Part shown: positions 3,075-40,616 of the stretch, piece by piece
Numbering within the stretch: position 1 is the first letter of the stretch
Layout of the letters: the number at the start of each line of letters is the position of its first letter
Source of the DNA: a virus
DNA length: 64,000 nt
IMG/VR virus record: IMGVR_UViG_3300042934_000519
Coordinates: 8,984-72,983 of that record
Direction: 5' to 3' (one strand)
Notes under the pieces: generated by a model
What the model was told of the DNA's origin: nothing
The model's input: only the letters and a program-made list of their open reading frames with translations
Databases searched by the model: none
Program-made: the position numbers and the translations under genes

Positions 3075-3488
3075 ATGATGAGTCAAGGAATCAGTCTGAT
3101 CCTCGTCGATGACGAGAATGAAATCCCGAGTTTGTTGCCGTTGCTGCACATTGACAACGTCGTGGCGTTGGACGACATGATCAACCACCTCGACACGCTG
3201 TACGACGAAGTGTTCTACGTGCTCTTCACAGGCCCTGAGAGCGCTGCTGAGAAGTACCTGCACATGTACAACGTCCGTCGGGCAATCGTTGTCCACAGCG
3301 GCAAAGCGAAAGCCCACGGGCGTGACCTGACGTGGATCAAAGCGGTATTAGGCAATAGCAAGCGTGAAGTGGTGCGGGGTGTGCTCCCTGAACCCAAGTT
3401 GAACTTAGGTTTCTTGGACCGCTCAGGTGGCTTCTCGCAACCTGAAGAGAAAGATGACCCGTATGCAGAGTTGGGCTACCGGCGATAA
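3075..3488 (+). CDS. Hypothetical protein
   Basis: ORF between early promoter and terminator. Confidence 0.7.
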   Translation: MMSQGISLILVDDENEIPSLLPLLHIDNVVALDDMINHLDTLYDEVFYVLFTGPESAAEKYLHMYNVRRAIVVHSGKAKAHGRDLTWIKAVLGNSKREVVRGVLPEPKLNLGFLDRSGGFSQPEEKDDPYAELGYRR

Positions 3489-3629: not shown

Positions 3630-3989
3630 ATGTCCGTACGTGTAAAAGCCGTTACACTGGAAATCCAACCAACTTCGGAACGCGTTAACCTGCGCCAAGT
3701 CCTCACTGGCCTGAACCTGTGTGGTCATCTGACCCCTATCCAGGTCAACCACGAACTGCTGCTCAAGAACAACCCGCACACGCAGATCGACCTCAGCGGT
3801 TCGGTGCTGACGTTCAAGAACAAGTTCGACCGTGCGATCGAGGTGGAGATCAGCATCTCGGAGCCACCGGCCAATACCAGCCCTCACCAACCGGGTCGTC
3901 CTGCTGACGCTGAGCGTCCGTGCAGCGAGATCCCATTGCCAGGTGGCGGTGAGTGCGTGCTCAAGGAAACCGAAGAAGACAAGCAGTAA
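3630..3989 (+). CDS. Hypothetical protein
   Basis: AAGGA SD; phage-like codon usage. Confidence 0.7.
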   Translation: MSVRVKAVTLEIQPTSERVNLRQVLTGLNLCGHLTPIQVNHELLLKNNPHTQIDLSGSVLTFKNKFDRAIEVEISISEPPANTSPHQPGRPADAERPCSEIPLPGGGECVLKETEEDKQ

Positions 3990-5260: not shown

Positions 5261-5946
5261 CGTGGCCGCAGTATCCGCACCGGGAACCTGAAATGTGTCC
5301 GGTGCGAGAGATACCTGTATACGCATTTGATGTAAACCCTGAGCAAGTGGGTATCTACCAGACTATCGACTTGATCACTGACCCAATCAACCCTCCGACA
5401 TCCCCGACTGAACAGGAAGCATCCGGCATGACTATCATCGACAGCAGTGCAGGTTTCGGTCCCGACACCGACGACGCAGGTAGCAAGGCCCGTGAGAAAC
5501 TGGCCTTGACAGGCGCCGCTATCAAGCGCAAAGCGTTGTTGATGTGGATGTGGATCAAGATCATCACCTTCCTTGCGGTGTGCGGCATCGTAGCGTTTGG
5601 TTACTACTCCTACCAACACCGCGTCAAGACTTACGTTACCGACCACCGACCTTGCATGGTGGAAGCCGAAGACAAGTCCTGGAAGGTCACAGGCTCTCGC
5701 GCTTACTCCTACCAAAACAACGAACTGTTTGGTTTCCGTTGGTCTGAAGCGGCAGCTGTCGAGGAGAAGACCGAACTGGACGTCACAGGTAACCTGATGG
5801 TCGGCGGTGCCTATGAAGGCGGTTACTGGTGGGTCGCTGTTACGGACAAGACCACCCGCCCTGTGTACCTCAAGCCAGCCTCGCTGTTGATCTTCATGGC
5901 CAACAACAAGATGCTGATCACCAACAATGAGACCTTCTGCAAATGA
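5245..5946 (+). CDS. Membrane-anchored hypothetical protein (start uncertain)
   Basis: One TM segment (LLMWMWIKIITFLAVCGIVAFGYY). Confidence 0.6.
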   Translation: MYCAVTWPQYPHREPEMCPVREIPVYAFDVNPEQVGIYQTIDLITDPINPPTSPTEQEASGMTIIDSSAGFGPDTDDAGSKAREKLALTGAAIKRKALLMWMWIKIITFLAVCGIVAFGYYSYQHRVKTYVTDHRPCMVEAEDKSWKVTGSRAYSYQNNELFGFRWSEAAAVEEKTELDVTGNLMVGGAYEGGYWWVAVTDKTTRPVYLKPASLLIFMANNKMLITNNETFCK

Positions 5947-8248: not shown

Positions 8249-8258
8249 ACGGGCGTGC

Positions 8259-8450
8259 ATGTACCCCAATCAGTTGGATGCCTTGAACTGGATCGTGCAG
8301 TGGGAACATGAGCGTGCCAGTGCTCAGTTCTTTCGCACCGGTAAACGGGAGGCCAACTTCCGGCAGTTGATGGGGCGTGTTATTCAAGAGCACACCCGGA
8401 TGTCCATGATGACCGAGCTGTCGCCGTGGCCGGGTAAACCCGCTGAATAA
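8259..8450 (+). CDS. Small hypothetical protein
   Basis: ORF ending just before hairpin 8452-8474 and TATGCCG. Confidence 0.45.
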   Translation: MYPNQLDALNWIVQWEHERASAQFFRTGKREANFRQLMGRVIQEHTRMSMMTELSPWPGKPAE

Positions 8451-8500
8451 GAGCAGGGGCGCTAAGCCCCTGCTTATGCCGCGTAAATACTTTACAGCGA

Positions 8501-8515
8501 TACATTATTCACGGG
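8501..8515 (+). promoter_or_regulatory. Putative early promoter
   Basis: TACATTATTCACGGG upstream of ligase. Confidence 0.6.
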
Positions 8516-8597
8516 AATAACAGTCAATTTATAAAATCCCCAGAGATCATCTGATGTGACATGCCGTTAATAACCCCTTATTTCCGAGGCCTCTCTC

Positions 8598-22806: not shown

Positions 22807-23657
22807 TATGTGAAAAGCGAGCAGTAACCCCTTAACTAAGGACAGTCAATGTTCTCAACCAACGGGGTGTTCTCTCTCCTTCGTAAGATCGTGTCGCAGA
22901 TTCGCTGTCAGGTTAGACTGACCCGAGTCTTGGCACGGTTAAACCGGGAGAGGGCCCCTTCGGCGCCAAAGACGCTAATGCTGCGTGGGACGCAGTCACG
23001 CCACGACCATAAGGCGGTCGGTTAGGCGTCGGCTGCGACGAGATTAGAAAATCTTACAGCTTAATGAGGGGGTCGCGCTCCTCTAAGGATGGAAATTGGG
23101 GTTTACCGCAATCATCTGCGGGTTAATGCTGTACTGCAACACGGCCGTGAGCGATCTGTCTTTCAGACCGGCTGCACGCCCGGAGATTCCGTTAGTGATA
23201 GCTGCTCGCGATTTGTCGCTGGTAGCTGTAAACGCCTTCGTGCCCGCGCTTCACCCGTACAGTCCGCCCTACCAGGCTGACTCTGGGACGATGGCCCCAC
23301 TGACGAACATGCACAGTCCAGCGTTGCTAATGCAGATGAGTACTACGGTCGTACCACGCCCAGGGTTCCAGACCCTGTAAGCCACTGGAACGATCGGAGT
23401 GCACACACATAGCTGCACCCGTGAGCGGATTGAGTTCCGTACTTGATGTAAGAGGCAGTTGTCTCTCATTGGCAAGCACGTGTGTCAGGCTCGAAGACTG
23501 CGGTTGGGTCTAATCGCTGCGATTACCCTAGGATCAGATCTTCCCCTGCACCCTTGTCAAGATGCTAAACAATGATCCGCCACCCCTTCACGATTCCACT
23601 TCCTAGTCGCACTGGGCAGCCGAGAATCATAAGGGGCGGCGTTCATTCCTTTATGCC
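22807..23657 (+). ncRNA. Candidate large structured non-coding RNA (~840 nt)
   Basis: No credible CDS in a gene-dense genome; TATG at 22807; more than 12 hairpins; terminal long stem plus TATGCCG. Confidence 0.7.
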
Positions 23658-33962: not shown

Positions 33963-36068
33963 TTACGGCTCGTCTTCTGGTGGGGTAGGTTCTGCCACGT
34001 CAATCGGCAACTGCTCACGCAGCTGTTCGATAAACGCTTCAGCATTGGTGATCGTGGCGATCGAGTTGTCGACCAAGTCTTCCAGCGAGGCTTCCACATC
34101 GTCCGGAGTCTTCACCCCCAGGATGGTTTCCACCGTTTCCTTGGACCATTGCAGGATGTCCTTGGAGCGCGTGGAGATGTTTGGTGCTTCGCCAGTATCA
34201 AGGAAGATGTCGTGCACATGGCAGCGCTGCTTCTGACCGATACGGTCCACACGAGCCACCGTCTGCGTCCGCTCGTAATCACGGAACGGGGAGTTGGTGA
34301 ACGCCAGTGTATTGGCCACCGTCAGAGGCACAGCCGTTGACAACGACTTGAAGGTCGCCACCAGAGGGTTGGCATCTGGGTCATCGTGGAACTTCTTGAT
34401 GATCGCAGGCAAGTCCTTGTTGGTTTCCCCGTAGACGAAGAGCGGCTTGTACCCCGCTTGCACCAACAACACTTCCAAGGCTTTGACCACTTCCACGTAA
34501 CTGGTAAAGATCACCGTCTTGCTCAAGGCATTGTCGATGATGTCTTCCAGCGGCATGTTGGCGAGCATGTCCAAGTGACACTGAATGCGCATCCGACCCA
34601 AGACCTGCGACAGCGCTTCGCCCAGCACCTTCAGTTCCACGTACTTGATGATCGCTCGCACGTTCAAGAACGGCTTGCGGTACTGCTCGGGGAGAGAAGG
34701 CACAATGTTCTTCAGCTCGTACCGGTTGCAGTACATCACCATGTCTTTCATGGTCACAGGATCGTAACCACGGCGGATCTGCTTGATGTAGCCTTTATAC
34801 ATCTCGAAGTCTTTGTTCTGCTGGGGTGAGCCACGGGCAATGGACTTCTGGTGCAGTTCCATGCAGGTGTCGTACAGCTTCATGTACTCCGGCATGCCCT
34901 TCTGGTAGAACTTGAGCTGCTCGGCGATGAAGTTGGTCATCTTGGTGCGGATCGAGTCCAAGGTGTAGTCAGCACCGTTAGGGATCTTCACCGTGACCGT
35001 GTGGTAATCCACGCCGGGTGTTTCAATGTCTTGTTTGAGCACCTTAAAGGACAGGATACCGATTCGGTTGGCCAGAATCTCCAGCGAACGCTTGGCCTCC
35101 TTACCGAACATCTTGCGGAACGCTTCACGGGCTTCAGGGGTGAAGTCATCGCAGAGCGTGGTCAGCAAGGTGATCGCTTCAGAGCCCATGGCCTTAAGCG
35201 GTGTACCCGAAGCATGCACCACGTCTTTGCACTGAAGTGTCCGGCACAGGTCGATCAGGTGGGCTGAGCGTTGGCTGGACTCTTCGTTGAAGTTGTGCGA
35301 TTCGTCGATGTCGATGAACGACTTACCAAACGAGCGAGGATTGGCCTTGACGAACTTGAGGAACTTCTCCAAGTAGTCGTAGTGCACGATGTAGATCTTC
35401 TTGCCCAGCACTGGTTCAGTACCGTGCATGGACGACCAGTAATCCGGGATACCCGACTTGAAGAAGAACTTGCCACCGAAGACCGGGGACTCCTTTGCAA
35501 TGGTTTTCTCCCAGACATCCACAGCCGCGTTCTTGGGACAGATGAAGATCTGAGTGTCCGCATTCAGACACAAGCCCAGTGCGTACCCGGTGATCGTCTT
35601 ACCGCCACCTGCGGCCACGTCCATGAGCATCCCATTGAGGGAATACTCCTGCGTCACGCGGTCGTAGTTATGTAAAAAATTGTCTTGGTGGGCAAATAGT
35701 GTGACGTTAAGTTCCTTAAGCCGGGAGAAATCCAGCTTTGACTTAAAATCACTGGAGCCTATTTTCTTGAGCCATGTATGAAGGCGTATCTCTTCAATGG
35801 TCTTAAGGAGGATGCGACGGGGTACTGACGTTCGGCGACTTTCGAGCAACCGTTCCAGCATGTACAACACTTCGATTGCAAAGAACCGAGGACACTTGAT
35901 CTGGGACTTGGTAATAGAAGAGAACATGTTGGTGTTGATCTTACTGGTTTTCCAGTAATTATACACGTCTCGACTGAATCGCAGCCCAGGGATACCATTC
36001 ACTATAATGTGAGAATCCGTTTCTTTAACAGACACGAACCCAACGAGTCGTGCAACACTACCGTACAT
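33963..36068 (-). CDS. SF2 (SNF2/DEAD-like) helicase, probably virion-associated
   Basis: AGGGKT, DESH, SGTP, QTVARVDRIGQ motifs; C-terminal ASLE site. Confidence 0.88.
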   Translation of the reverse strand: MYGSVARLVGFVSVKETDSHIIVNGIPGLRFSRDVYNYWKTSKINTNMFSSITKSQIKCPRFFAIEVLYMLERLLESRRTSVPRRILLKTIEEIRLHTWLKKIGSSDFKSKLDFSRLKELNVTLFAHQDNFLHNYDRVTQEYSLNGMLMDVAAGGGKTITGYALGLCLNADTQIFICPKNAAVDVWEKTIAKESPVFGGKFFFKSGIPDYWSSMHGTEPVLGKKIYIVHYDYLEKFLKFVKANPRSFGKSFIDIDESHNFNEESSQRSAHLIDLCRTLQCKDVVHASGTPLKAMGSEAITLLTTLCDDFTPEAREAFRKMFGKEAKRSLEILANRIGILSFKVLKQDIETPGVDYHTVTVKIPNGADYTLDSIRTKMTNFIAEQLKFYQKGMPEYMKLYDTCMELHQKSIARGSPQQNKDFEMYKGYIKQIRRGYDPVTMKDMVMYCNRYELKNIVPSLPEQYRKPFLNVRAIIKYVELKVLGEALSQVLGRMRIQCHLDMLANMPLEDIIDNALSKTVIFTSYVEVVKALEVLLVQAGYKPLFVYGETNKDLPAIIKKFHDDPDANPLVATFKSLSTAVPLTVANTLAFTNSPFRDYERTQTVARVDRIGQKQRCHVHDIFLDTGEAPNISTRSKDILQWSKETVETILGVKTPDDVEASLEDLVDNSIATITNAEAFIEQLREQLPIDVAEPTPPEDEP

Positions 36069-36117
36069 TGTTCTATTCCTTAATAACTAGGGAATCAGGA
36101 TAAAAGAGGATCATAAG

Positions 36118-37224
36118 ATGACTCAAGTTAACAAGGCAGCCGGTGGCAGCGTCCACCAGCAGCACGCCGAGGTGGTCAAGTTTCGTTCCAGCTTGGAAGC
36201 GTTGATGGTTGCCGGACGCGAGTTCCTGGGCAATCCGTCACTGGAAGATTCCCAGGCTGTGGCATTCACCACGCTGACAGAAGACGTTCTGGAGCCAGCC
36301 GGTCTGGACGAAGAACTCAAAAAGATCGACGGTGTGGCGGACCCTGCTTCCAAGATCGAACTGATCATGCAGGACATCATCCAGCCTCAGCTGACCACCG
36401 TGGCCAAACTCGAAGAGCACCTTGCTCAGAAAGCCGAAGGCCAAGTCGATGAGCCGTTCACCACCCGTGACCAGATGACTGCTGCGCCGTCGTTTGAATC
36501 GATCGTGGTCGAGCGTGATGAGCTACGCCTGTTCTCTCACGGCCTGCACTCGCTCAAGGTCATGGCATCGATGGAAGGCGTCACTGCGGACCACATGCGT
36601 CCTATGCTGAGCCACTTCCTGCGCCAAGTGCCGGACATCACCGCCCAACTGAACATCTCCATTGAAAACATGGAAGAGACTCAGGTGCTGGGCGAGATGA
36701 CTGAAGCCGTTGACCGCATGACCGCGGTGGTTGAGAACGCTCGTACCTTGGCTGAAACCCAAGTCAACGACGCTCGTGGCCAGAACGCTCAGATCGAAAC
36801 CGACAACGCCACTGACTGGACCGAGAACCTGTTGGCCAAAGTCGAGAGCACCAAGCAATCGGGCGCTGTGTTGGACGACGACGTCAAAGTCTCCAGCACT
36901 CCATCTGACGGCACTGTGGCTTCGACCGACACCACTGGTTCCACTGACATGGAAGTGGACGAGACCGGTATTGACGGCGGTGAGGCAGGTGAAGCAGAAG
37001 CACTGGCAGCCGATGCTGCTGTGGCTGATGCAGACGCTGCGGCGGCTGAAGTCGATGCCAACACCGACACCGGTGCAGGCACTGGCGATGACGCTGGCAA
37101 GTCGTTGGGTGAAAACGCTGACGAGTTGAAAGACAACGTCGAAGAGCCTGAACTCGATGACGACGGTAACCCGATCGTCAAAGAAGAAGAGCAGGAAGAA
37201 GAAGAGGAAGAAGAGGTCAAGTGA
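36118..37224 (+). CDS. Acidic virion/head protein
   Basis: Multiple SxE sites (SLE, SFE, SME, SIE); highly acidic C-terminus. Confidence 0.65.
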   Translation: MTQVNKAAGGSVHQQHAEVVKFRSSLEALMVAGREFLGNPSLEDSQAVAFTTLTEDVLEPAGLDEELKKIDGVADPASKIELIMQDIIQPQLTTVAKLEEHLAQKAEGQVDEPFTTRDQMTAAPSFESIVVERDELRLFSHGLHSLKVMASMEGVTADHMRPMLSHFLRQVPDITAQLNISIENMEETQVLGEMTEAVDRMTAVVENARTLAETQVNDARGQNAQIETDNATDWTENLLAKVESTKQSGAVLDDDVKVSSTPSDGTVASTDTTGSTDMEVDETGIDGGEAGEAEALAADAAVADADAAAAEVDANTDTGAGTGDDAGKSLGENADELKDNVEEPELDDDGNPIVKEEEQEEEEEEEVK

Positions 37225-37256
37225 CCTAGTCTTTTAAAACTGTGTCTCTACCATTA

Positions 37257-37703
37257 TATGTAGGAAACACGCTCTTTAAGAAACTGTTCTCCAACCAAAC
37301 GCCACTGGCGTAACTAGGACGCTTCCATCGAGTCGCGTTCGGCTGCTCTTAATGGCAGCCCCAGAAGGACTAGGGGGCCTTAGGGTCCCCTCTTCCACTA
37401 TTTTGTTGCAGCCCCATGAACTCGTCGTGATAGTGGGGTTTTGAGGGATAGTTCCATACGACCCAGGTGAGTCCGCCTTAGACTCTACCGCACCCTGGTG
37501 CTCGTGTGGTAAACGATGAAGCGTTGATGGTTTTGCCTCCGCATCGCTGTGACTAGGTAAGTGCCCGCTCCTCACTTGCTCGGTCAGTGTACAGCCTCTA
37601 GTGTCCACCGGTCCGGCTATAACCGTCTGGTCACTAGGGGATGAACATTGCTCTACAGCACTGAATAGACAGGAGGGCAACCTCCTGTCTTTCTTTTATG
37701 CCG
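37257..37703 (+). ncRNA. Candidate structured non-coding RNA (~430 nt)
   Basis: TATG at 37257, no credible CDS, nested stems, ends in terminator 37667-37690 plus TATGCCG. Confidence 0.7.
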
Positions 37704-37715
37704 TAAGGACCCTTT

Positions 37716-38084
37716 ATGAAATGGTACACCCTCGCCATTCCTCAATGGCGTAAAGCGAAAGCATTGGGGATTGAGACGTTGGACATCACGGTCAAGTCAG
37801 GTGATAAACGCTTTGCCCCGTACGATGAAGTGCTGTGGGCCTACAAGCGCGGTGAGGTGTCTGATGAGGAGTACACCGAGATCTATCGCAGTAAGCTTAC
37901 TAAGTTGCTCCACAGCGATCCTAAGGCCATTGAGGACCTATTGACCGCAGAGGGTGAAGCAAAGGCTGTCATGTGTTACTGCACCGTAGGCAAGTTCTGT
38001 CACCGGCACATCTGGATGGAGTTCATGCAGGATGTCGCAGACGATAACGGTATCCACTTCGAGCACTGTGGGGAAATAGTATGA
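37716..38084 (+). CDS. DUF488-like protein
   Basis: DITVKSG..FAP, Y...Y, CYC..GKFCHR motifs. Confidence 0.65.
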   Translation: MKWYTLAIPQWRKAKALGIETLDITVKSGDKRFAPYDEVLWAYKRGEVSDEEYTEIYRSKLTKLLHSDPKAIEDLLTAEGEAKAVMCYCTVGKFCHRHIWMEFMQDVADDNGIHFEHCGEIV

Positions 38085-38114
38085 CGCTCCATTCCTACAC
38101 CCTTCAGGTGACGT

Positions 38115-38657
38115 ATGTCCAACGATTGCGATCAGTTTCTATTTGACCCCGAGAAGTCCGCCCTTGAGAACTTCTTTGCCCTTGTGTACCGTCGCAACAA
38201 AGTACGCCTGACGGATAAAGATGTAGCGGTGGGGGTACCTGTCTTCATCAACGATGACCCTGACGGTGATAACACCAAAGTCCGCTTGGACGGTAAACCC
38301 GGTGGACGATTCAAGAACGGCGGTGACTGGTTCTACGCCCGTGCTGACATCGAGACCTATTACCCGGTCTACGACATTGACTTAGCTGCACTGGAAGGCA
38401 TTACTACCAAAGCCCAGTTGATTGAATACATCGATGACCAGTTTGATCTGGTGGACGGTGAGTTTGACTTGGACCTTGAAGACCCGATTGGTTCTTTGAT
38501 GGCCTACACCTCGATCAACCTCAAAGCCAAACCGGCTTCTCTGATCTACATCGGTCAGAAGACCATCAACCTCTTCTGGTCTGGCGGTATCCGTCGGGTC
38601 ACTGAAGAAGGCGTGATGCGTGTAACAGACGATGGCCGTGTACGCGTACTCGACTAA
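38115..38657 (+). CDS. Virion structural protein
   Basis: SLIYIG motif and C-terminal RVTEEGVMRVTDDG; TATG upstream. Confidence 0.6.
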   Translation: MSNDCDQFLFDPEKSALENFFALVYRRNKVRLTDKDVAVGVPVFINDDPDGDNTKVRLDGKPGGRFKNGGDWFYARADIETYYPVYDIDLAALEGITTKAQLIEYIDDQFDLVDGEFDLDLEDPIGSLMAYTSINLKAKPASLIYIGQKTINLFWSGGIRRVTEEGVMRVTDDGRVRVLD

Positions 38658-38659
38658 CA

Positions 38660-38700
38660 GCATAGAGCCCCAGAGCCGTAGTGGCTCTGGGGCTCTATGC
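38660..38700. terminator. Bidirectional terminator with perfect 18-bp stem
   Basis: GCATAGAGCCCCAGAGCC-GTAGT-GGCTCTGGGGCTCTATGC between convergent genes. Confidence 0.85.
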
Positions 38701-38717
38701 GTCACGCTACTGCGTCG

Positions 38718-40616
38718 TTAGACAGCAGGTGGGGTCTCGCCTTCGATCTCGGTCGCAGCGTCGTTGAACGCAGCGGTCAGAGAGTCAACCAGGCCTTGCA
38801 GCGCGGTGTCGCCCGATTCCATGCTCAGTGCCAAGGCATCGAGTTCTGGTTTCAGGGTAGCCGGGGTCACGAACTTGGCAGCTTCGGTACCGGCAGTCAC
38901 TTCGGCTTGCGAAGCGGTGACGTCAGCGAAGGACTTGCCACCCAGCAATGCCGAGTCTGCTGCTTGTTCGGTTTTGCCCAGCTTGTCGTCAACGGCAGTG
39001 ATCAGGGCAGCCAGTGCATCGCCTTCCTGAGTCAGCTTGTCAGCCAGTTCCTTCAGGGTGTCGAGTGCAGTCGGAGCACCGTCAACCAACGCGCTGATTG
39101 CATCGTCTACCTTGGCTTTGAGGGCCAGAGCAGTGATGTACTTCGCATCGTCGGTACCAGCGATGGCTTCAGCCGAAGTGGCCTTTTCCAGACCGCCAGC
39201 TTCTGCCTGAGCGATGTAGGCATCCAGCGCATCCTGAACAGCCTGGATGGTTTGAACGTCGCCACCACGGATGGTCGCCAGGATTTGCTCGAGGGTCTGG
39301 CCTTCCAGCTTGCTGGAATCGACAGCAGTACCAGTCGCAGGCAGCGCAGCGTCAGCGGTAGCCTTGGCAGCATCAGCAGTGGCTTGAGCAGCAACGGCTT
39401 TACCGTCAGCAACCTCAGCAGCGTCACCAGCCAATTGAACAGCAGCGTCCACAGCTTCGATGGAAGTGTTGTGGCCAGACAGGATGTCTTTCAGCGCTTG
39501 TGGTTCAGCACCTTCGGTCACCACGACAGGGTTGTTACCCAGATCGCTGGTTTCAGTCAGGAAGCCAGAACCGCCACCGGTGGCTTCTTCCAGCGCGGTG
39601 ATACGAGCAGCCAGCGGATCGGTGATCGCTTTGGTGGCAACGTCGGCATCAGCGATGAACTGAGCGAGGGTCTTACCGCCGAACTTCGCAGAGTCAGCAG
39701 CAGTTTCCAGTTTGCCCAGCTTGTCAGCCAGAGACGAGACGATGGCCGCAACGGCGTCGTCTTGGTCAGCCAGCTTGTCAGCCAGCTCTTTGAGGGTGTC
39801 CAAGGCTTCTGGAGCGCCATCAACGAGGGCGTTGACCGCTTGAGCCACACCGGCTTTCACACCAGCAGCGGTGACGAACTTGGCGTCGTCAGTACCGGCT
39901 TCCACTTCTTCAGCAGTGGCCTTGGCAGGGATCAGGGCTTCAACAGCGTCCAGGTCATCCTGGATACCGGCGAAGATCTGAGCGAAGGTCTGTGCGCCAA
40001 CGCTGTAGCCAGCGAAGTCGTCAGTCTTCTTGACCACTTCGGAGAGGTCCACACCGCCAGTAGCGGCGTCGAGGATCTCAGCGAGGGTCTTGCCTTCCAG
40101 CTTGCTGGAGTCAGCGGCAACGCCGGTCTTGTCCAGTTTGTTACCGACCGAGGTCAGCAGCTGGTTGATGACGTCCGGGTTGTTCTGAAGCGCAGCAGCG
40201 ATTTCAGCGATGGTGTCCAGGGTCTCTGGAGCAGCGCCGACCTTGCTGGCCCAGAAGGCCGCCAGGTTTGCTGGAACGAGGTAGCGGTCAACGCCAGTGG
40301 CGGTAACAGCTTCAGCGTCGGTAGCCGGAGCGTAGTTCTCGACCTTGTCCAGACCCACTTGGGCCTTGGTCACCTGATGCGGGTTATCGCGACGGGCGAT
40401 GAACGCGTTCAGGATGGTTTCGAGTGCGTCGATCTCAGCGTCAGTGGCGCTGGTGATCTCTGCCTTGACCTGAGCCAAGGTTTTGCCTTCGAAGAGGCTG
40501 GAGTCAGCAGCACGCTCGGTCTTACCGAGTTTGAGGCCGAGTTGAATTTTCAGCGCAGCGTTGAAGGCCGCGATGGATTGAAGCAGTTGAGCAAGTCTTT
40601 CAGGACTCAGAGGCAT
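38718..40616 (-). CDS. Repetitive tail fibre protein
   Basis: Repeats AADSxKLxGK, APxxLDTLxELA, ATxxExxAGTDDxKxxT and NPHQVTKAQVGL. Confidence 0.85.
   Translation of the reverse strand: MPLSPERLAQLLQSIAAFNAALKIQLGLKLGKTERAADSSLFEGKTLAQVKAEITSATDAEIDALETILNAFIARRDNPHQVTKAQVGLDKVENYAPATDAEAVTATGVDRYLVPANLAAFWASKVGAAPETLDTIAEIAAALQNNPDVINQLLTSVGNKLDKTGVAADSSKLEGKTLAEILDAATGGVDLSEVVKKTDDFAGYSVGAQTFAQIFAGIQDDLDAVEALIPAKATAEEVEAGTDDAKFVTAAGVKAGVAQAVNALVDGAPEALDTLKELADKLADQDDAVAAIVSSLADKLGKLETAADSAKFGGKTLAQFIADADVATKAITDPLAARITALEEATGGGSGFLTETSDLGNNPVVVTEGAEPQALKDILSGHNTSIEAVDAAVQLAGDAAEVADGKAVAAQATADAAKATADAALPATGTAVDSSKLEGQTLEQILATIRGGDVQTIQAVQDALDAYIAQAEAGGLEKATSAEAIAGTDDAKYITALALKAKVDDAISALVDGAPTALDTLKELADKLTQEGDALAALITAVDDKLGKTEQAADSALLGGKSFADVTASQAEVTAGTEAAKFVTPATLKPELDALALSMESGDTALQGLVDSLTAAFNDAATEIEGETPPAV

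What the first reader, a model, noticed from the sequence alone, without database searches (positions are those of the whole stretch)
37257..37703. Second candidate structured ncRNA (~430 nt) with its own promoter and terminator
Seen: TATG at 37257 and a terminator AGACAGGAGG-GCAA-CCTCCTGTCT plus TATGCCG, with no credible + strand ORF between. A long-range stem GACGCTT-C-CATCG/CGATG-AAGCGTT (37318-37330 with ~37514-37525) encloses GGCTGC/GCAGCC, GGGGCC/GGTCCC, GCCCCAT/GTGGGGT, CCAGG/CCTGG and GAGTC/GACTC. It is followed by GTAAGTG/CACTTGC and CCTCTAGTG/CACTAGGGG inside CAGTG/CACTG. The size resembles tmRNA or RNase P, but their hallmark sequences are absent.
Basis: partly seen in the sequence, partly recalled or inferred. 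Interest (0 to 1): 0.85.

Follow-up and report, generated by a model that had tools for sequence, protein, structure and literature searches.

The report
New structured RNA in jumbo phages
A stretch of about 435 bases between two genes of a giant phage encodes a folded RNA that makes no protein, keeps its shape across related giant phages and matches no known RNA family, so it is probably a new functional RNA whose job is unknown.

Summary
The finding is real and mostly right. Window 37225-37715 is a 491-nt gap between an ORF of unknown function and a DUF488 gene in a fragment of a jumbo phage related to Pseudomonas phage pPa_SNUABM_DT01.

The same element lies at the same place in DT01 and in 13 further jumbo-size viral or metagenome contigs, giving 15 members at 43-95% identity, one copy per genome. 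It was found in none of 47 bacterial or archaeal pattern hits and in none of 5 other phiKZ-like phages.

It folds as a row of 9-10 hairpins. Covariation is strong:
- Core: 26 pairs, 94.5% paired, 17 pairs changed on both sides, 0 of 500 shuffles as high.
- 3' domain: 26 pairs, 85.4% paired, 11 pairs changed on both sides.

No reading frame is conserved. Rfam and ARAGORN find nothing. It begins at a phiKZ-type TATG promoter motif and ends at a strong terminator.

Its long-range stem is not conserved and competes with two helices that are.

A transcript has not been shown, and the function is unknown. My best guess, about 35% likely, is a trans-acting scaffold or decoy that displays invariant loops, one of them resembling an anti-Shine-Dalgarno sequence.

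The parts
37245..37260 (+). Promoter-like element ACCATTATATG. TATG lies at 37257-37260, and transcription is inferred to start at G 37260.
   Evidence: A TATG-type motif (TGTG in L040) stands in the same register before the conserved 5' sequence in all 14 members whose 5' end is held, usually as GTATAGTATGTAGGA with an A-run 10-15 nt upstream. In phiKZ the late-promoter consensus is TATG and its last G is the start site (PMC4666361, passages read). The start site here is inferred, not shown.
37260..37697 (+). Inferred RNA of about 438 nt, from the G of TATG to the end of the U tract.
   Evidence: Thirteen full-length members, trimmed from TATG to the U run, measure 414-479 nt. The nearest relative, L177, gives 453 nt. 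No frame is conserved. Covariance models of the core and of the 3' domain each hit 14 of 14 members and 0 of 86 control loci.
37299..37311 (+). H1, a small hairpin ACGCC-ACU-GGCGU.
   Evidence: A hairpin at this position is predicted in every member folded. In the DT01-like members it reads UGCGC-N6-GCGUA.
37317..37340 (+). H2 hairpin.
   Evidence: A local hairpin with an unrelated sequence occupies this position in all members. In the window its ensemble probability is only about 0.03, because the long-range alternative competes.
37341..37360 (+). H3 hairpin GGCUGCU-CUUAAU-GGCAGCC.
   Evidence: A hairpin is present at this place in all members. DT01-like members carry a C-rich loop, CCACUCCCCCAU, which the window lacks. 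In a relative strain, G37354>A turns a U-G pair into U-A.
37367..37396 (+). H4 hairpin, with core GGGGGCC-UUAG-GGUCCCC at 37373-37390.
   Evidence: Ten different stem sequences among the 14 members are all perfectly complementary, with 6-11 pairs.
37397..37410 (+). J4/5, a conserved single-stranded block ACUAUUUUGUUGCA.
   Evidence: The block UU(C/U)GUUG is invariant in 14 of 14 members.
37411..37439 (+). H5, a 7-bp stem with a near-invariant 15-nt loop GAACUCGUCGUGAUA at 37418-37432.
   Evidence: All 7 pairs change on both sides somewhere in the family and 100% of cells stay paired, while 12 of the 15 loop positions never change across the 14 members. In a relative strain, T37417>C turns U-G into C-G.
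37451..37514 (+). H6, a long hairpin. Invariant GUU/AAC base: 37451-53 with 37512-14. Outer stem: 37454-61 with 37502-09. Middle stem: 37463-67 with 37494-98. Apical stem: 37469-73 with 37481-85.
   Evidence: The outer helix has 9 pairs, 99.2% paired, and 5 pairs change on both sides. The flanking GUUC and GUAAACG blocks are invariant. The apical extra hairpin is specific to the window and L018.
37518..37545 (+). H7 hairpin GAAGCG...CGCAUC, with one A-A mismatch in the window.
   Evidence: It has 8 pairs, 90.9% paired, and 5 pairs change on both sides. Column 129/162 switches from G-C to A-U in two lineages. In the window alone its predicted probability is about 0.
37550..37586 (+). H9 hairpin, with the near-invariant C-rich loop CCCGCUCCU at 37564-37572, which resembles an anti-Shine-Dalgarno sequence.
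   Evidence: It has 11 pairs, 78.5% paired against 60.1% in shuffles, and 8 pairs change on both sides. Loop positions CC.CUCCUC are invariant in 14 of 14 members. In relative strains G37557>A goes with C37579>T.
37587..37648 (+). H10, a long conserved stem (37587-37606 with 37629-37648) holding an invariant G-A mismatch. Its tip carries the CCGGCU motif at 37613-37618.
   Evidence: It has 20 pairs, 91.4% paired, and 9 pairs change on both sides. Relative strains change both sides at 37599/37636, 37601/37634, 37605/37630 and 37606/37629. L176 changes the otherwise invariant A-U pair to U-A. The conserved sequence occurs once per genome, not at other terminators.
37667..37697 (+). Intrinsic terminator: a 10-bp GC-rich stem at 37667-37690 followed by a U tract.
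   Evidence: Found by the terminator scan. In the DT01-like members H10 itself is followed by the U run and serves as the terminator.
37697..37703 (+). TATGCCG, a punctuation motif that follows hairpins throughout this phage. It contains a TATG that could start the DUF488 transcript.
   Evidence: In 15 of its 17 copies in the window a strong hairpin ends 0-4 nt before it. The 40 nt upstream of the motif fold to -20.0 kcal/mol on average, against -7.9 at 500 random places. T(A/T)TGCCG(T/C) follows the U run in the 12 other members whose 3' flank was read. In L054 and L177 TATGCCG is not seen at that place.
37716..38084 (+). Downstream gene for a DUF488 protein of 122 aa.
   Evidence: Pfam PF22751 DUF488-N3a, E 1.7e-08, and phrog_2450. 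Homologues occur in 288 phage records, including one similar to phiKZ gp151, and the four checked have no such RNA upstream.
36118..37224 (+). Upstream ORF of 368 aa with an acidic tail and no known family.
   Evidence: No Pfam or PHROG match. It is not similar to the upstream gene of DT01.

Best explanation
This is the gene of a previously undescribed family of large structured non-coding RNAs, about 415-480 nt long. The family is confined, as far as I searched, to jumbo phages related to Pseudomonas phage pPa_SNUABM_DT01.

Shown:
- The sequence is conserved in 15 contigs and single-copy in the 5 genome records scanned whole.
- It has no conserved reading frame.
- It keeps a row of 9-10 hairpins through many compensatory changes, with G-U pairs that fit only the + strand.
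- Each member has a TATG-type motif (TGTG in L040) at one end and a terminator at the other.

Inferred:
- The phage's own phiKZ-like non-virion RNA polymerase starts at the G of TATG (37260).
- Transcription ends at the U tract (about 37697), giving a free RNA of about 438 nt.

Most likely mechanism (about 35% likely, inferred only): the RNA acts in trans as a folded scaffold or decoy. Its variable stems serve to display a few conserved single-stranded elements to partners:
- the 15-nt loop GAACUCGUCGUGAUA, of which 12 positions never change;
- the loop CGCUACC;
- the loop CCGGCU;
- the C-rich loop CC(N)CUCCU.

The last loop is complementary to Shine-Dalgarno sequences (GGAG). It could hold ribosome-binding sites or a factor that recognises the 3' end of 16S rRNA. 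The other loops and the conserved G-A-containing stem H10 look like protein-binding sites.

The confidence of 0.8 is for the identity as a conserved structured non-coding RNA family, not for the mechanism.
For: Homology and distribution:
- The syntenic gap of DT01 aligns with the window and folds with z -6.93.
- Motif scans found members only on jumbo-size viral or metagenome contigs.
- 7 of 7 contigs found with the neighbouring helicase carry the element at the same place.
- There is one strong match in each of the 5 records scanned whole.
- 0 of 47 bacterial or archaeal pattern hits carry the other motifs.
- 0 of 5 other phiKZ-like phages match better than E 0.35.

Structure:
- Core alignment: 26 pairs, 94.5% paired against 80.1% in shuffles, and 17 pairs changed on both sides, with 0 of 500 shuffles as high. 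Sliding the partner by 1-3 columns gives 35-57% paired.
- 3' domain: 85.4% paired against 75.8%, with 11 pairs changed on both sides.
- H9: 78.5% paired against 60.1%.
- Further compensatory changes appear in DNA contigs of relative strains and in L176.

Strand:
- G-U pairs are frequent, for example U-G in all 14 members at one H10 pair.
- The 3' domain model scores 60-100 bits on the + strand and 24-38 bits on the reverse.

Non-coding: every frame has stops in most members, and no frame is open across the family.

Transcript ends; PMC4666361 for TATG with the start at G; PMC8541153 for phiKZ-like RNA polymerases in DT01.

Not a known family.

Loop display:
- Loops are invariant while their stems vary.
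- The CCGGCU loop sits on a separate hairpin, H8, in DT01-like members. In the window and L018, which lack H8, it sits on the tip of H10.
Against: - No transcript has been seen, and the ends are inferred by analogy with phiKZ.
- In the window and its nearest relative only about 20-35 nt separate the terminator from the DUF488 start codon. Read-through control of that gene therefore cannot be excluded.
- The window's own minimum-energy fold is 8.7 kcal/mol better than the fold forced to the family helices. It uses the non-conserved long-range stem instead of H2 and H7.
- No conserved long-range helix or pseudoknot was found, so a compact tertiary fold is unproven.
- No extended antisense target of the H9 loop or the H5 loop exists in three complete member genomes or in the window. 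The 9-mer complement of H9 is found only at the RNA gene itself in 2 of 3 genomes, and hits to the H5 complement are no more frequent than hits to the reversed control.
- The anti-Shine-Dalgarno idea therefore rests on only 5-6 nt.
- The 14 aligned sequences represent about 9 well-separated lineages, so shuffle statistics overstate independence.
Confidence: 0.8

Rival explanations
1. It is a cis-acting leader of the DUF488 gene. A very large attenuator or riboswitch-like element would use its terminator to control read-through into the gene.
For: It lies on the same strand directly upstream of DUF488 in 14 of 15 members. In the window and L177 only about 20-35 nt separate the terminator from the start codon. 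phiKZ and 201phi2-1 make short RNAs by early termination in 5' UTRs (PMC10914365 and PMC11512511, passages read).
Against: A TATG or TATAG promoter-like motif lies between the terminator and the gene in most members, and within TATGCCG in the window. L025 has another ORF between the RNA and the 122-aa gene. In the four other phages whose DUF488 neighbourhood I read, no comparable annotated gap precedes the gene (the widest is about 260 nt, in PhiPA3), and a core-model search of their whole genomes and of Noxifer finds no such RNA. Ten hairpins and about 440 nt are far more than known leaders need. The terminator stem H10 is conserved in sequence far beyond what termination requires.
Confidence: 0.1
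2. It is a diverged member of a known large RNA family, such as RNase P RNA, tmRNA, a group I or II intron, GOLLD, ROOL, HEARO or OLE.
For: The size fits these families. A CCGGCU motif faintly recalls the CCCGGCUUA block of bacterial RNase P RNA; that comparison is recalled, not tested.
Against: Rfam 15 gives no match at gathering scores in the window. At E up to 10 only miRNA, snoRNA and similar chance hits appear, in three members. ARAGORN finds no tmRNA. The element is a chain of hairpins without the long-range helices that these families have. The flanking ORFs are complete, so it does not interrupt a gene.
Confidence: 0.03
3. It is a DNA-level element, such as a replication origin, a packaging site or a recombination hotspot, whose inverted repeats act in DNA.
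For: It lies among replication and recombination genes, including an SNF2 helicase next door and a DnaB-like helicase, a ligase and a polymerase elsewhere in the window. Relative strains show mosaic boundaries at 37222 and near 37553.
Against: Many conserved G-U pairs would be A-C mismatches on the other strand. Model scores are strand-asymmetric. The element is flanked by a promoter motif and a terminator. The loop sequences are conserved in one sense only.
Confidence: 0.03
4. It encodes one or more small proteins, and the apparent structure is incidental.
For: The window has a 134-aa - strand ORF (37276-37680) and short + strand ORFs of 30 and 50 aa. L025 has a 127-aa open frame on the RNA strand.
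Against: No frame is open across members; most frames carry 3-13 stops in the other sequences. The - strand ORF has no Pfam or PHROG match. Substitutions are paired across stems rather than periodic.
Confidence: 0.02

Closest known systems
GOLLD and ROOL (large ornate RNAs often carried by phages and prophages)
   Same: Both are large, intricately structured non-coding RNAs encoded in phage genomes. Both were found by comparative analysis and have unknown function. The papers were seen only as search listing and abstracts (10.1101/2024.12.08.627333; PMC5737381).
   Different: There is no sequence or structure match in Rfam. This RNA is smaller; GOLLD is about 800 nt and ROOL about 580 nt by recall. 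It lies in Pseudomonas-type jumbo phages rather than phages of Firmicutes. It is a chain of hairpins without shown long-range helices. Self-assembly has not been tested.
Staphylococcus aureus RNAIII (514-nt regulatory RNA with many hairpins; features recalled)
   Same: A long RNA built of many hairpins. C-rich apical loops could pair with Shine-Dalgarno regions of mRNAs.
   Different: There is no homology. RNAIII also encodes a peptide and has defined targets. Here no extended target complementarity was found in the phage genomes, and pairing has not been tested.
Small non-coding RNAs of phiKZ and 201phi2-1 (5'UTR-derived, under 250 nt)
   Same: They are phage-encoded RNAs of nucleus-forming jumbo phages, bounded by a phage promoter and a terminator (PMC10914365 and PMC11512511, passages read).
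   Different: Those RNAs are 71-196 nt and mostly products of early termination in 5' UTRs. This RNA is about 435 nt with 9-10 conserved helices. Its core model finds nothing in a Phikzvirus (PA7), PhiPA3, Noxifer or two Erwinia jumbo phages. The supplementary tables of those papers were not available.
Protein-sponge RNAs such as CsrB, RsmY and RsmZ (features recalled)
   Same: They are multi-hairpin RNAs whose role is to display loop motifs to a binding protein.
   Different: Sponge RNAs repeat one motif (GGA) many times. Here each conserved loop is different, and no GGA loops are present. The Rfam PrrB_RsmZ hit in DT01 is on the wrong strand, at 10.2 bits against a gathering score of 44.

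Membership tests
RNase P RNA | Match to the Rfam RNase P covariance models, which capture the conserved P4 pseudoknot and CR-I to CR-V blocks | tested here: not met
   No RNase P family appears among the matches at E up to 10 in the window region, DT01 or L054. There are none at gathering score in the whole window.
tmRNA | tRNA-like domain formed by the 5' and 3' ends, plus a tag reading frame | tested here: not met
   ARAGORN finds 0 tRNA or tmRNA genes in the window. There is no Rfam tmRNA hit.
Group I or group II intron | Match to the intron core models, and interruption of a host gene with exons on both sides | tested here: not met
   There is no Rfam intron hit. The flanking ORFs end at 37224 and start at 37716 as complete genes.
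GOLLD / ROOL / HEARO / OLE / raiA (large bacterial and phage ncRNA families in Rfam) | Match to the family covariance model | tested here: not met
   No such family is listed at E up to 10 in three members.
phiKZ-type late transcription unit | TATG motif whose last G is the start site, used by the phage non-virion RNA polymerase | tested here: inconclusive
   The motif is present at 37257-37260 and in the same register in 13 of the 14 members whose 5' end is held; L040 has TGTG. DT01 has phiKZ-like RNA polymerase genes (PMC8541153). The start site itself cannot be tested with these tools, and TATG is frequent by chance.
Intrinsic terminator | GC-rich stem-loop followed by a U run | tested here: met
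   A 10-bp stem with 6 G-C pairs and a 4-nt loop, followed by TTCTTTT. In DT01-like members H10 is followed by a run of T.
Structured ncRNA (general criteria) | Base pairs maintained by compensatory substitutions in homologues, and no conserved reading frame | tested here: met
   for covariation with shuffle and slide controls. for the absence of a conserved frame.
Riboswitch or cis-regulatory leader | Lies in the 5' UTR of the regulated gene, with no promoter between it and the gene; the terminator competes with an alternative pairing | tested here: inconclusive
   Promoter-like TATG or TATAG motifs lie between the terminator and the gene in most members, and L025 has an inserted ORF. The window has only about 20 nt there. 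No conserved anti-terminator pairing was found.

The most novel reading that the evidence does not exclude
This would be the first large, highly structured RNA machine of nucleus-forming jumbo phages. In this reading it is an RNA that the phage makes with its own polymerase and that works as an RNP core, a ribozyme or a self-assembling particle. It would either hijack or decoy the host translation apparatus through its anti-Shine-Dalgarno-like loop, or act inside the phage nucleus. It would be comparable in standing to GOLLD, ROOL or OLE, but in a phage that can be grown on a laboratory strain (pPa_SNUABM_DT01).
Probability: 0.25. Interest if true: 0.88.

Novelty: new variant of a known kind. 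Interest (0 to 1): 0.72.

Why it matters
Bacterial and phage RNAs longer than 400 nt with conserved structure are rare, and the few known classes have each opened new biology. This one has no Rfam family and no report in the literature I searched.

It lies in jumbo phages that encode their own phiKZ-like RNA polymerases; phiKZ itself, a relative, forms a nucleus-like compartment. No large structured RNA has been described in such phages.

One member, pPa_SNUABM_DT01, is an isolated phage that grows on Pseudomonas aeruginosa. Expression, partners, structure and phenotype can therefore be tested directly. The invariant loops give precise targets for mutation or antisense knock-down.

Tried and rejected
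**Ideas tested and dropped**
- Pseudoknot between the H5 loop (UCGUCGU) and GUAAACGAUG. It was suggested by the two-sequence alifold. I rejected it because the variable partner column (G/A at column 129) covaries with H7 (column 162), not with the loop. L082 and L025 would also have mismatches.
It is not conserved, although it is favoured in the window's own fold.
- Antisense targets of the H9 and H5 loops in phage genomes. Nothing rose above the controls.
- A second copy in the window. The only other hit of model R1 (3124-3233, 13.8 bits) lies inside the ORF 3075-3488 and is taken as chance.
- H10 as a general terminator motif of the clade. Its conserved sequence occurs exactly once in G001 and G002, once with one mismatch at the RNA gene in DT01, and at only 3-4 other one-mismatch places in G002 and DT01.

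**Searches that led nowhere**
- blastn of the gap against the phage collection found no match for the window's element. The DT01 element matched only itself.
- First motif scan: 11 of 13 hits were chance matches in what look like unrelated stretches, which lack the family's other motifs.
- Expression: no RNA holder was listed for window 36000-39000. The four runs laid were DNA contigs, so nothing can be said about expression.

**Alignments not used for counts**
- Alignment A7 (H4) was misaligned by MAFFT. H4 is described from per-sequence folds instead.
- Alignment A5 contains reverse-strand rows and was not used for counts.

**Tools and sources not available**
- Supplementary tables of the phiKZ and 201phi2-1 transcriptome papers, which list ncRNAs and terminators, could not be read. 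They concern phages in which the model finds no homologue; 201phi2-1 itself was not scanned.
Full report
**Where it is**

The window is part of a 72,983-bp viral record estimated 27% complete. Its closest isolated relative is the 265-kb jumbo phage Pseudomonas phage pPa_SNUABM_DT01 (MW735835; 69.6% identity over 40% of a 6.7-kb query). The DT01 paper (passages read) reports phiKZ-like virion and non-virion multisubunit RNA polymerases and places the phage near Noxifer and phiKZ.

The finding lies in a 491-nt gap. Upstream is an ORF of 368 aa with no family (36118-37224, +). Downstream is a 122-aa DUF488 gene (37716-38084, +).

**The observation**

TATG at 37257, the terminator at 37667-37690 and TATGCCG at 37697 are all present. 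The + strand folds to -173.4 kcal/mol, with z -4.78 and 0 of 100 shuffles as good. The - strand gives z -2.96. Rfam gives no match at gathering scores in the whole window and only chance-level hits at E up to 10. ARAGORN finds nothing.

**Relatives**

The equivalent gap of DT01, between two hypothetical genes the second of which is DUF488, aligns with the window in conserved blocks and folds with z -6.93.

Motif scans gave these results:
- The first motif gave 13 viral loci. Only L004 and L015 carried the family's other motifs; 11 were chance matches.
- A two-block pattern gave 7 of 7 real members.
- A pattern from the 3' domain gave 9 real and 2 chance loci among viral contigs.
- The same pattern gave 4 real loci of 74 among metagenome contigs.
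- It gave 0 of 47 among bacterial and archaeal genomes.

After removing duplicates (L017 equals L040, and L023 equals L093), 14 sequences were left. A fifteenth, L176, came from a search with the neighbouring helicase. In that search 7 of 7 related contigs carried the element at the same place.

Where a contig is long, it is 164-277 kb. Pairwise identity is 43-95%. The window's nearest relative is L018/L177 at 62%.

A covariance model of the core finds one strong match in each of the 5 records scanned whole. It finds nothing better than E 0.35 in Noxifer, pEa_SNUABM_54, PA7 (a Phikzvirus), PhiPA3 or Asesino. Homologues of the DUF488 gene occur in 288 phage records. In the four whose neighbourhood I read, no comparable annotated gap precedes the gene; the widest is about 260 nt, in PhiPA3. 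The RNA is therefore an addition specific to the DT01-like clade.

**Anatomy**

All members share the same order of elements:
- a conserved 5' sequence (GUAGGACCUGUUCUUUCACAA in most members);
- hairpins H1 to H4;
- a conserved single-stranded block containing UU(C/U)GUUGC;
- H5, whose 7-bp stem varies freely while 12 of the 15 positions of its loop GAACUCGUCGUGAUA never change;
- GUUC;
- the long hairpin H6, with a CGCUACC loop;
- GUAAACGAU;
- H7;
- GCUG;
- H8, with an AUCCGGCUAA loop;
- H9, with the loop CC(N)CUCCU;
- the long stem H10, whose sequence GCAGCCUCCAGUG...CACUGGGGGAUGC is conserved and includes an invariant G-A mismatch.

In DT01-like members a U run follows H10 directly, so H10 doubles as the terminator. 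The window and L018/L177 lack H8 and carry the CCGGCU motif on the tip of H10 instead. They also have a separate terminator hairpin. Moving a loop motif from one hairpin to another suggests that the loop, not its carrier, is what matters.

**Is the structure more than chance?**

On MAFFT alignments that were not fitted to the structure:
- The core helices H5, H6 and H7 have 26 pairs with 94.5% of cells paired, against 80.1% in shuffles. Seventeen pairs change on both sides, and 0 of 500 shuffles are as high. Sliding the 3' partner by 1-3 columns leaves 35-57% paired.
- The 3' domain has 26 pairs with 85.4% paired against 75.8%, and 11 pairs change on both sides, with 1 of 500 shuffles as high.
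- H9, realigned alone, has 78.5% paired against 60.1%. Eight pairs change on both sides, a count that 46 of 500 shuffles reach; the cells changed on both sides and the covariation score are exceeded by 0 of 500.
- H4 has ten different, perfectly complementary stems among 14 members.

The sequences are related, with about nine well-separated lineages, so the shuffle counts overstate independence. The slide control does not have that weakness.

Independent support comes from DNA contigs of relative strains in three studies. Both sides change at 37557/37579 (H9) and at 37599/37636, 37601/37634, 37605/37630 and 37606/37629 (H10). Several one-sided changes turn U-G into C-G or U-A. One listed change (37633 A>C) would break a pair unless its partner changed among the 36 rows the tool did not show.

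L176 changes the otherwise invariant A-U pair of H10 to U-A.

**Which strand, and is it coding?**

G-U pairs are common and conserved; for example, one H10 pair is U-G in all 14 members. The 3' domain model scores 60-100 bits on the + strand and 24-38 bits on the reverse strand of the same places. Both models hit 14 of 14 members and 0 of 86 control loci, which were chance pattern hits.

No reading frame is open across members. The window's 134-aa - strand ORF has 3-10 stops in the corresponding frames of most others.

**The ends**

Upstream, 13 of the 14 members whose 5' end is held have TATG in the same register, and L040 has TGTG. In the DT01-like members it reads GTATAGTATG preceded by an A-run. 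The window and L177 have ACCATTATATG.

In phiKZ the late-promoter consensus is TATG, and its last G is the start site (PMC4666361, passages read). I therefore place the start at 37260. This is an inference.

Downstream, the terminator is followed by TATGCCG. In the window, 15 of the 17 copies of this heptamer have a strong hairpin ending 0-4 nt before them. The 40 nt upstream fold to -20.0 kcal/mol on average, against -7.9 at random places. It is therefore a general punctuation signal of this phage, and its presence supports a real transcript boundary.

It contains a TATG, which could start the DUF488 transcript. In DT01-like members a TATAG or TATG motif lies further downstream, before the DUF488 ribosome-binding site.

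The long-range stem (37318-37330 with 37514-37525) is in the sequence, and the energy model favours it for this sequence. The fold forced to the family helices is 8.7 kcal/mol less stable than the free fold, and H7 has a probability of about 0.

Across the family the picture differs. In 10 of 11 members the equivalent pairing is within about 1.2 sd of shuffled partners or weaker than them; the window is 1.7 sd better than its shuffles. In the nearest relative it has probability 0. It also excludes H2 and H7, and H7 covaries.

I treat the stem as either a chance feature or an alternative conformer specific to the window. Chemical probing would decide.

**How it most likely works**

Shown: this is a conserved, single-copy, non-coding, strand-specific structured element.

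Inferred: it is a free RNA of about 438 nt made by the phage polymerase.

The design is variable stems, invariant loops and junctions, one conserved stem with a fixed mismatch, and a loop motif that can move between hairpins. This is what one expects of an RNA that presents several specific binding sites. My best guess, at about 35%, is a trans-acting scaffold or decoy.

The H9 loop CUCCU(C) is complementary to Shine-Dalgarno sequences. DT01-like members have a second loop with CCACUCC in H3. Pairing with ribosome-binding sites or mimicry of the 16S 3' end is therefore possible, at about 20%, overlapping the first guess.

Against a specific antisense role, no extended complement of the H9 or H5 loops occurs in three complete member genomes or in the window beyond chance.

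Ribozyme activity and self-assembly of the GOLLD/ROOL type each deserve about 10%. A cis-acting leader of DUF488 also deserves about 10%.

**Comparison with what is known**

The RNA is not a member of any Rfam family. Searches of the paper library turned up no description of it. The terms used were:
- pPa_SNUABM_DT01;
- jumbo phage + non-coding RNA + structured;
- Chimalliviridae + noncoding RNA;
- GOLLD + ROOL + phage.

The transcriptome papers on phiKZ and 201phi2-1 (passages read) describe RNAs under 250 nt and conserved terminator motifs.

The nearest kind is the group of large phage-borne RNAs of unknown function, GOLLD and ROOL. The nearest working analogy is a multi-hairpin regulator such as RNAIII, whose features I recall rather than tested.

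**Verdict**

This is a well-supported new family of large structured RNA in DT01-like jumbo phages.

Noticed in passing
window, 17 sites (e.g. 3520, 8475, 15848, 21147, 24466, 28379, 37697, 50007, 56332 on +; 25707, 32789, 41746, 51662, 56297 on -): The heptamer TATGCCG follows a strong GC-rich hairpin by 0-4 nt in 15 of its 17 copies. TWTGCCG occurs 29 times against 13.4 expected. It looks like a genome-wide terminator or promoter punctuation signal of this phage. Three - strand copies are preceded by the same A-rich run, AAAGAAAAAAGAAA.
   Followed up: partly
window 37222 and about 37553: In DNA contigs of relative strains from three studies, alignment to the window starts exactly at 37222. 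The RNA's first two thirds (37222-37552) differ at about 6 positions, while the last third differs at about 50. The RNA gene therefore seems to be a mosaic of two exchangeable domains, joined where H8 sits in other members.
   Followed up: partly
window 37607-37628; L001 about 5905-5925: The conserved loop motif (A)UCCGGCU(A) sits on its own hairpin, H8, in DT01-like members. In the window and L018/L177, which lack H8, it sits on the tip of H10.
   Followed up: partly
window 8249-8597 and 23381-23657: These are two further gaps without a long ORF in a crude gene call, of 349 and 277 nt. They fold somewhat better than shuffles (z -2.73 and -2.03). The first contains a hairpin followed by TATGCCG at 8475, and the second ends with TATGCCG at 23652.
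   Followed up: no
window 37716-38084: Relatives of the DUF488 (PF22751) gene occur in 288 phage records from many jumbo-phage genera, including the PhiPA3 gene annotated as similar to phiKZ gp151. It appears to be a widely conserved gene of unknown function in these phages.
   Followed up: partly
window 36118-37224; L177 about 3760-3830 (-): The ORF upstream of the RNA ends in a long acidic tail, in the window and (Glu/Lys-rich) in its nearest relative. It has no family and is unrelated to the upstream gene of DT01 (no alignment at E up to 100).
   Followed up: partly
G001:167573, G002:275449, W01 (DT01):106495: The 14-mer ATCACCCCGAGTTC recurs in three member genomes. It differs at two central bases from the complement of the H5 loop. 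It is probably a conserved coding stretch and was not examined.
   Followed up: no
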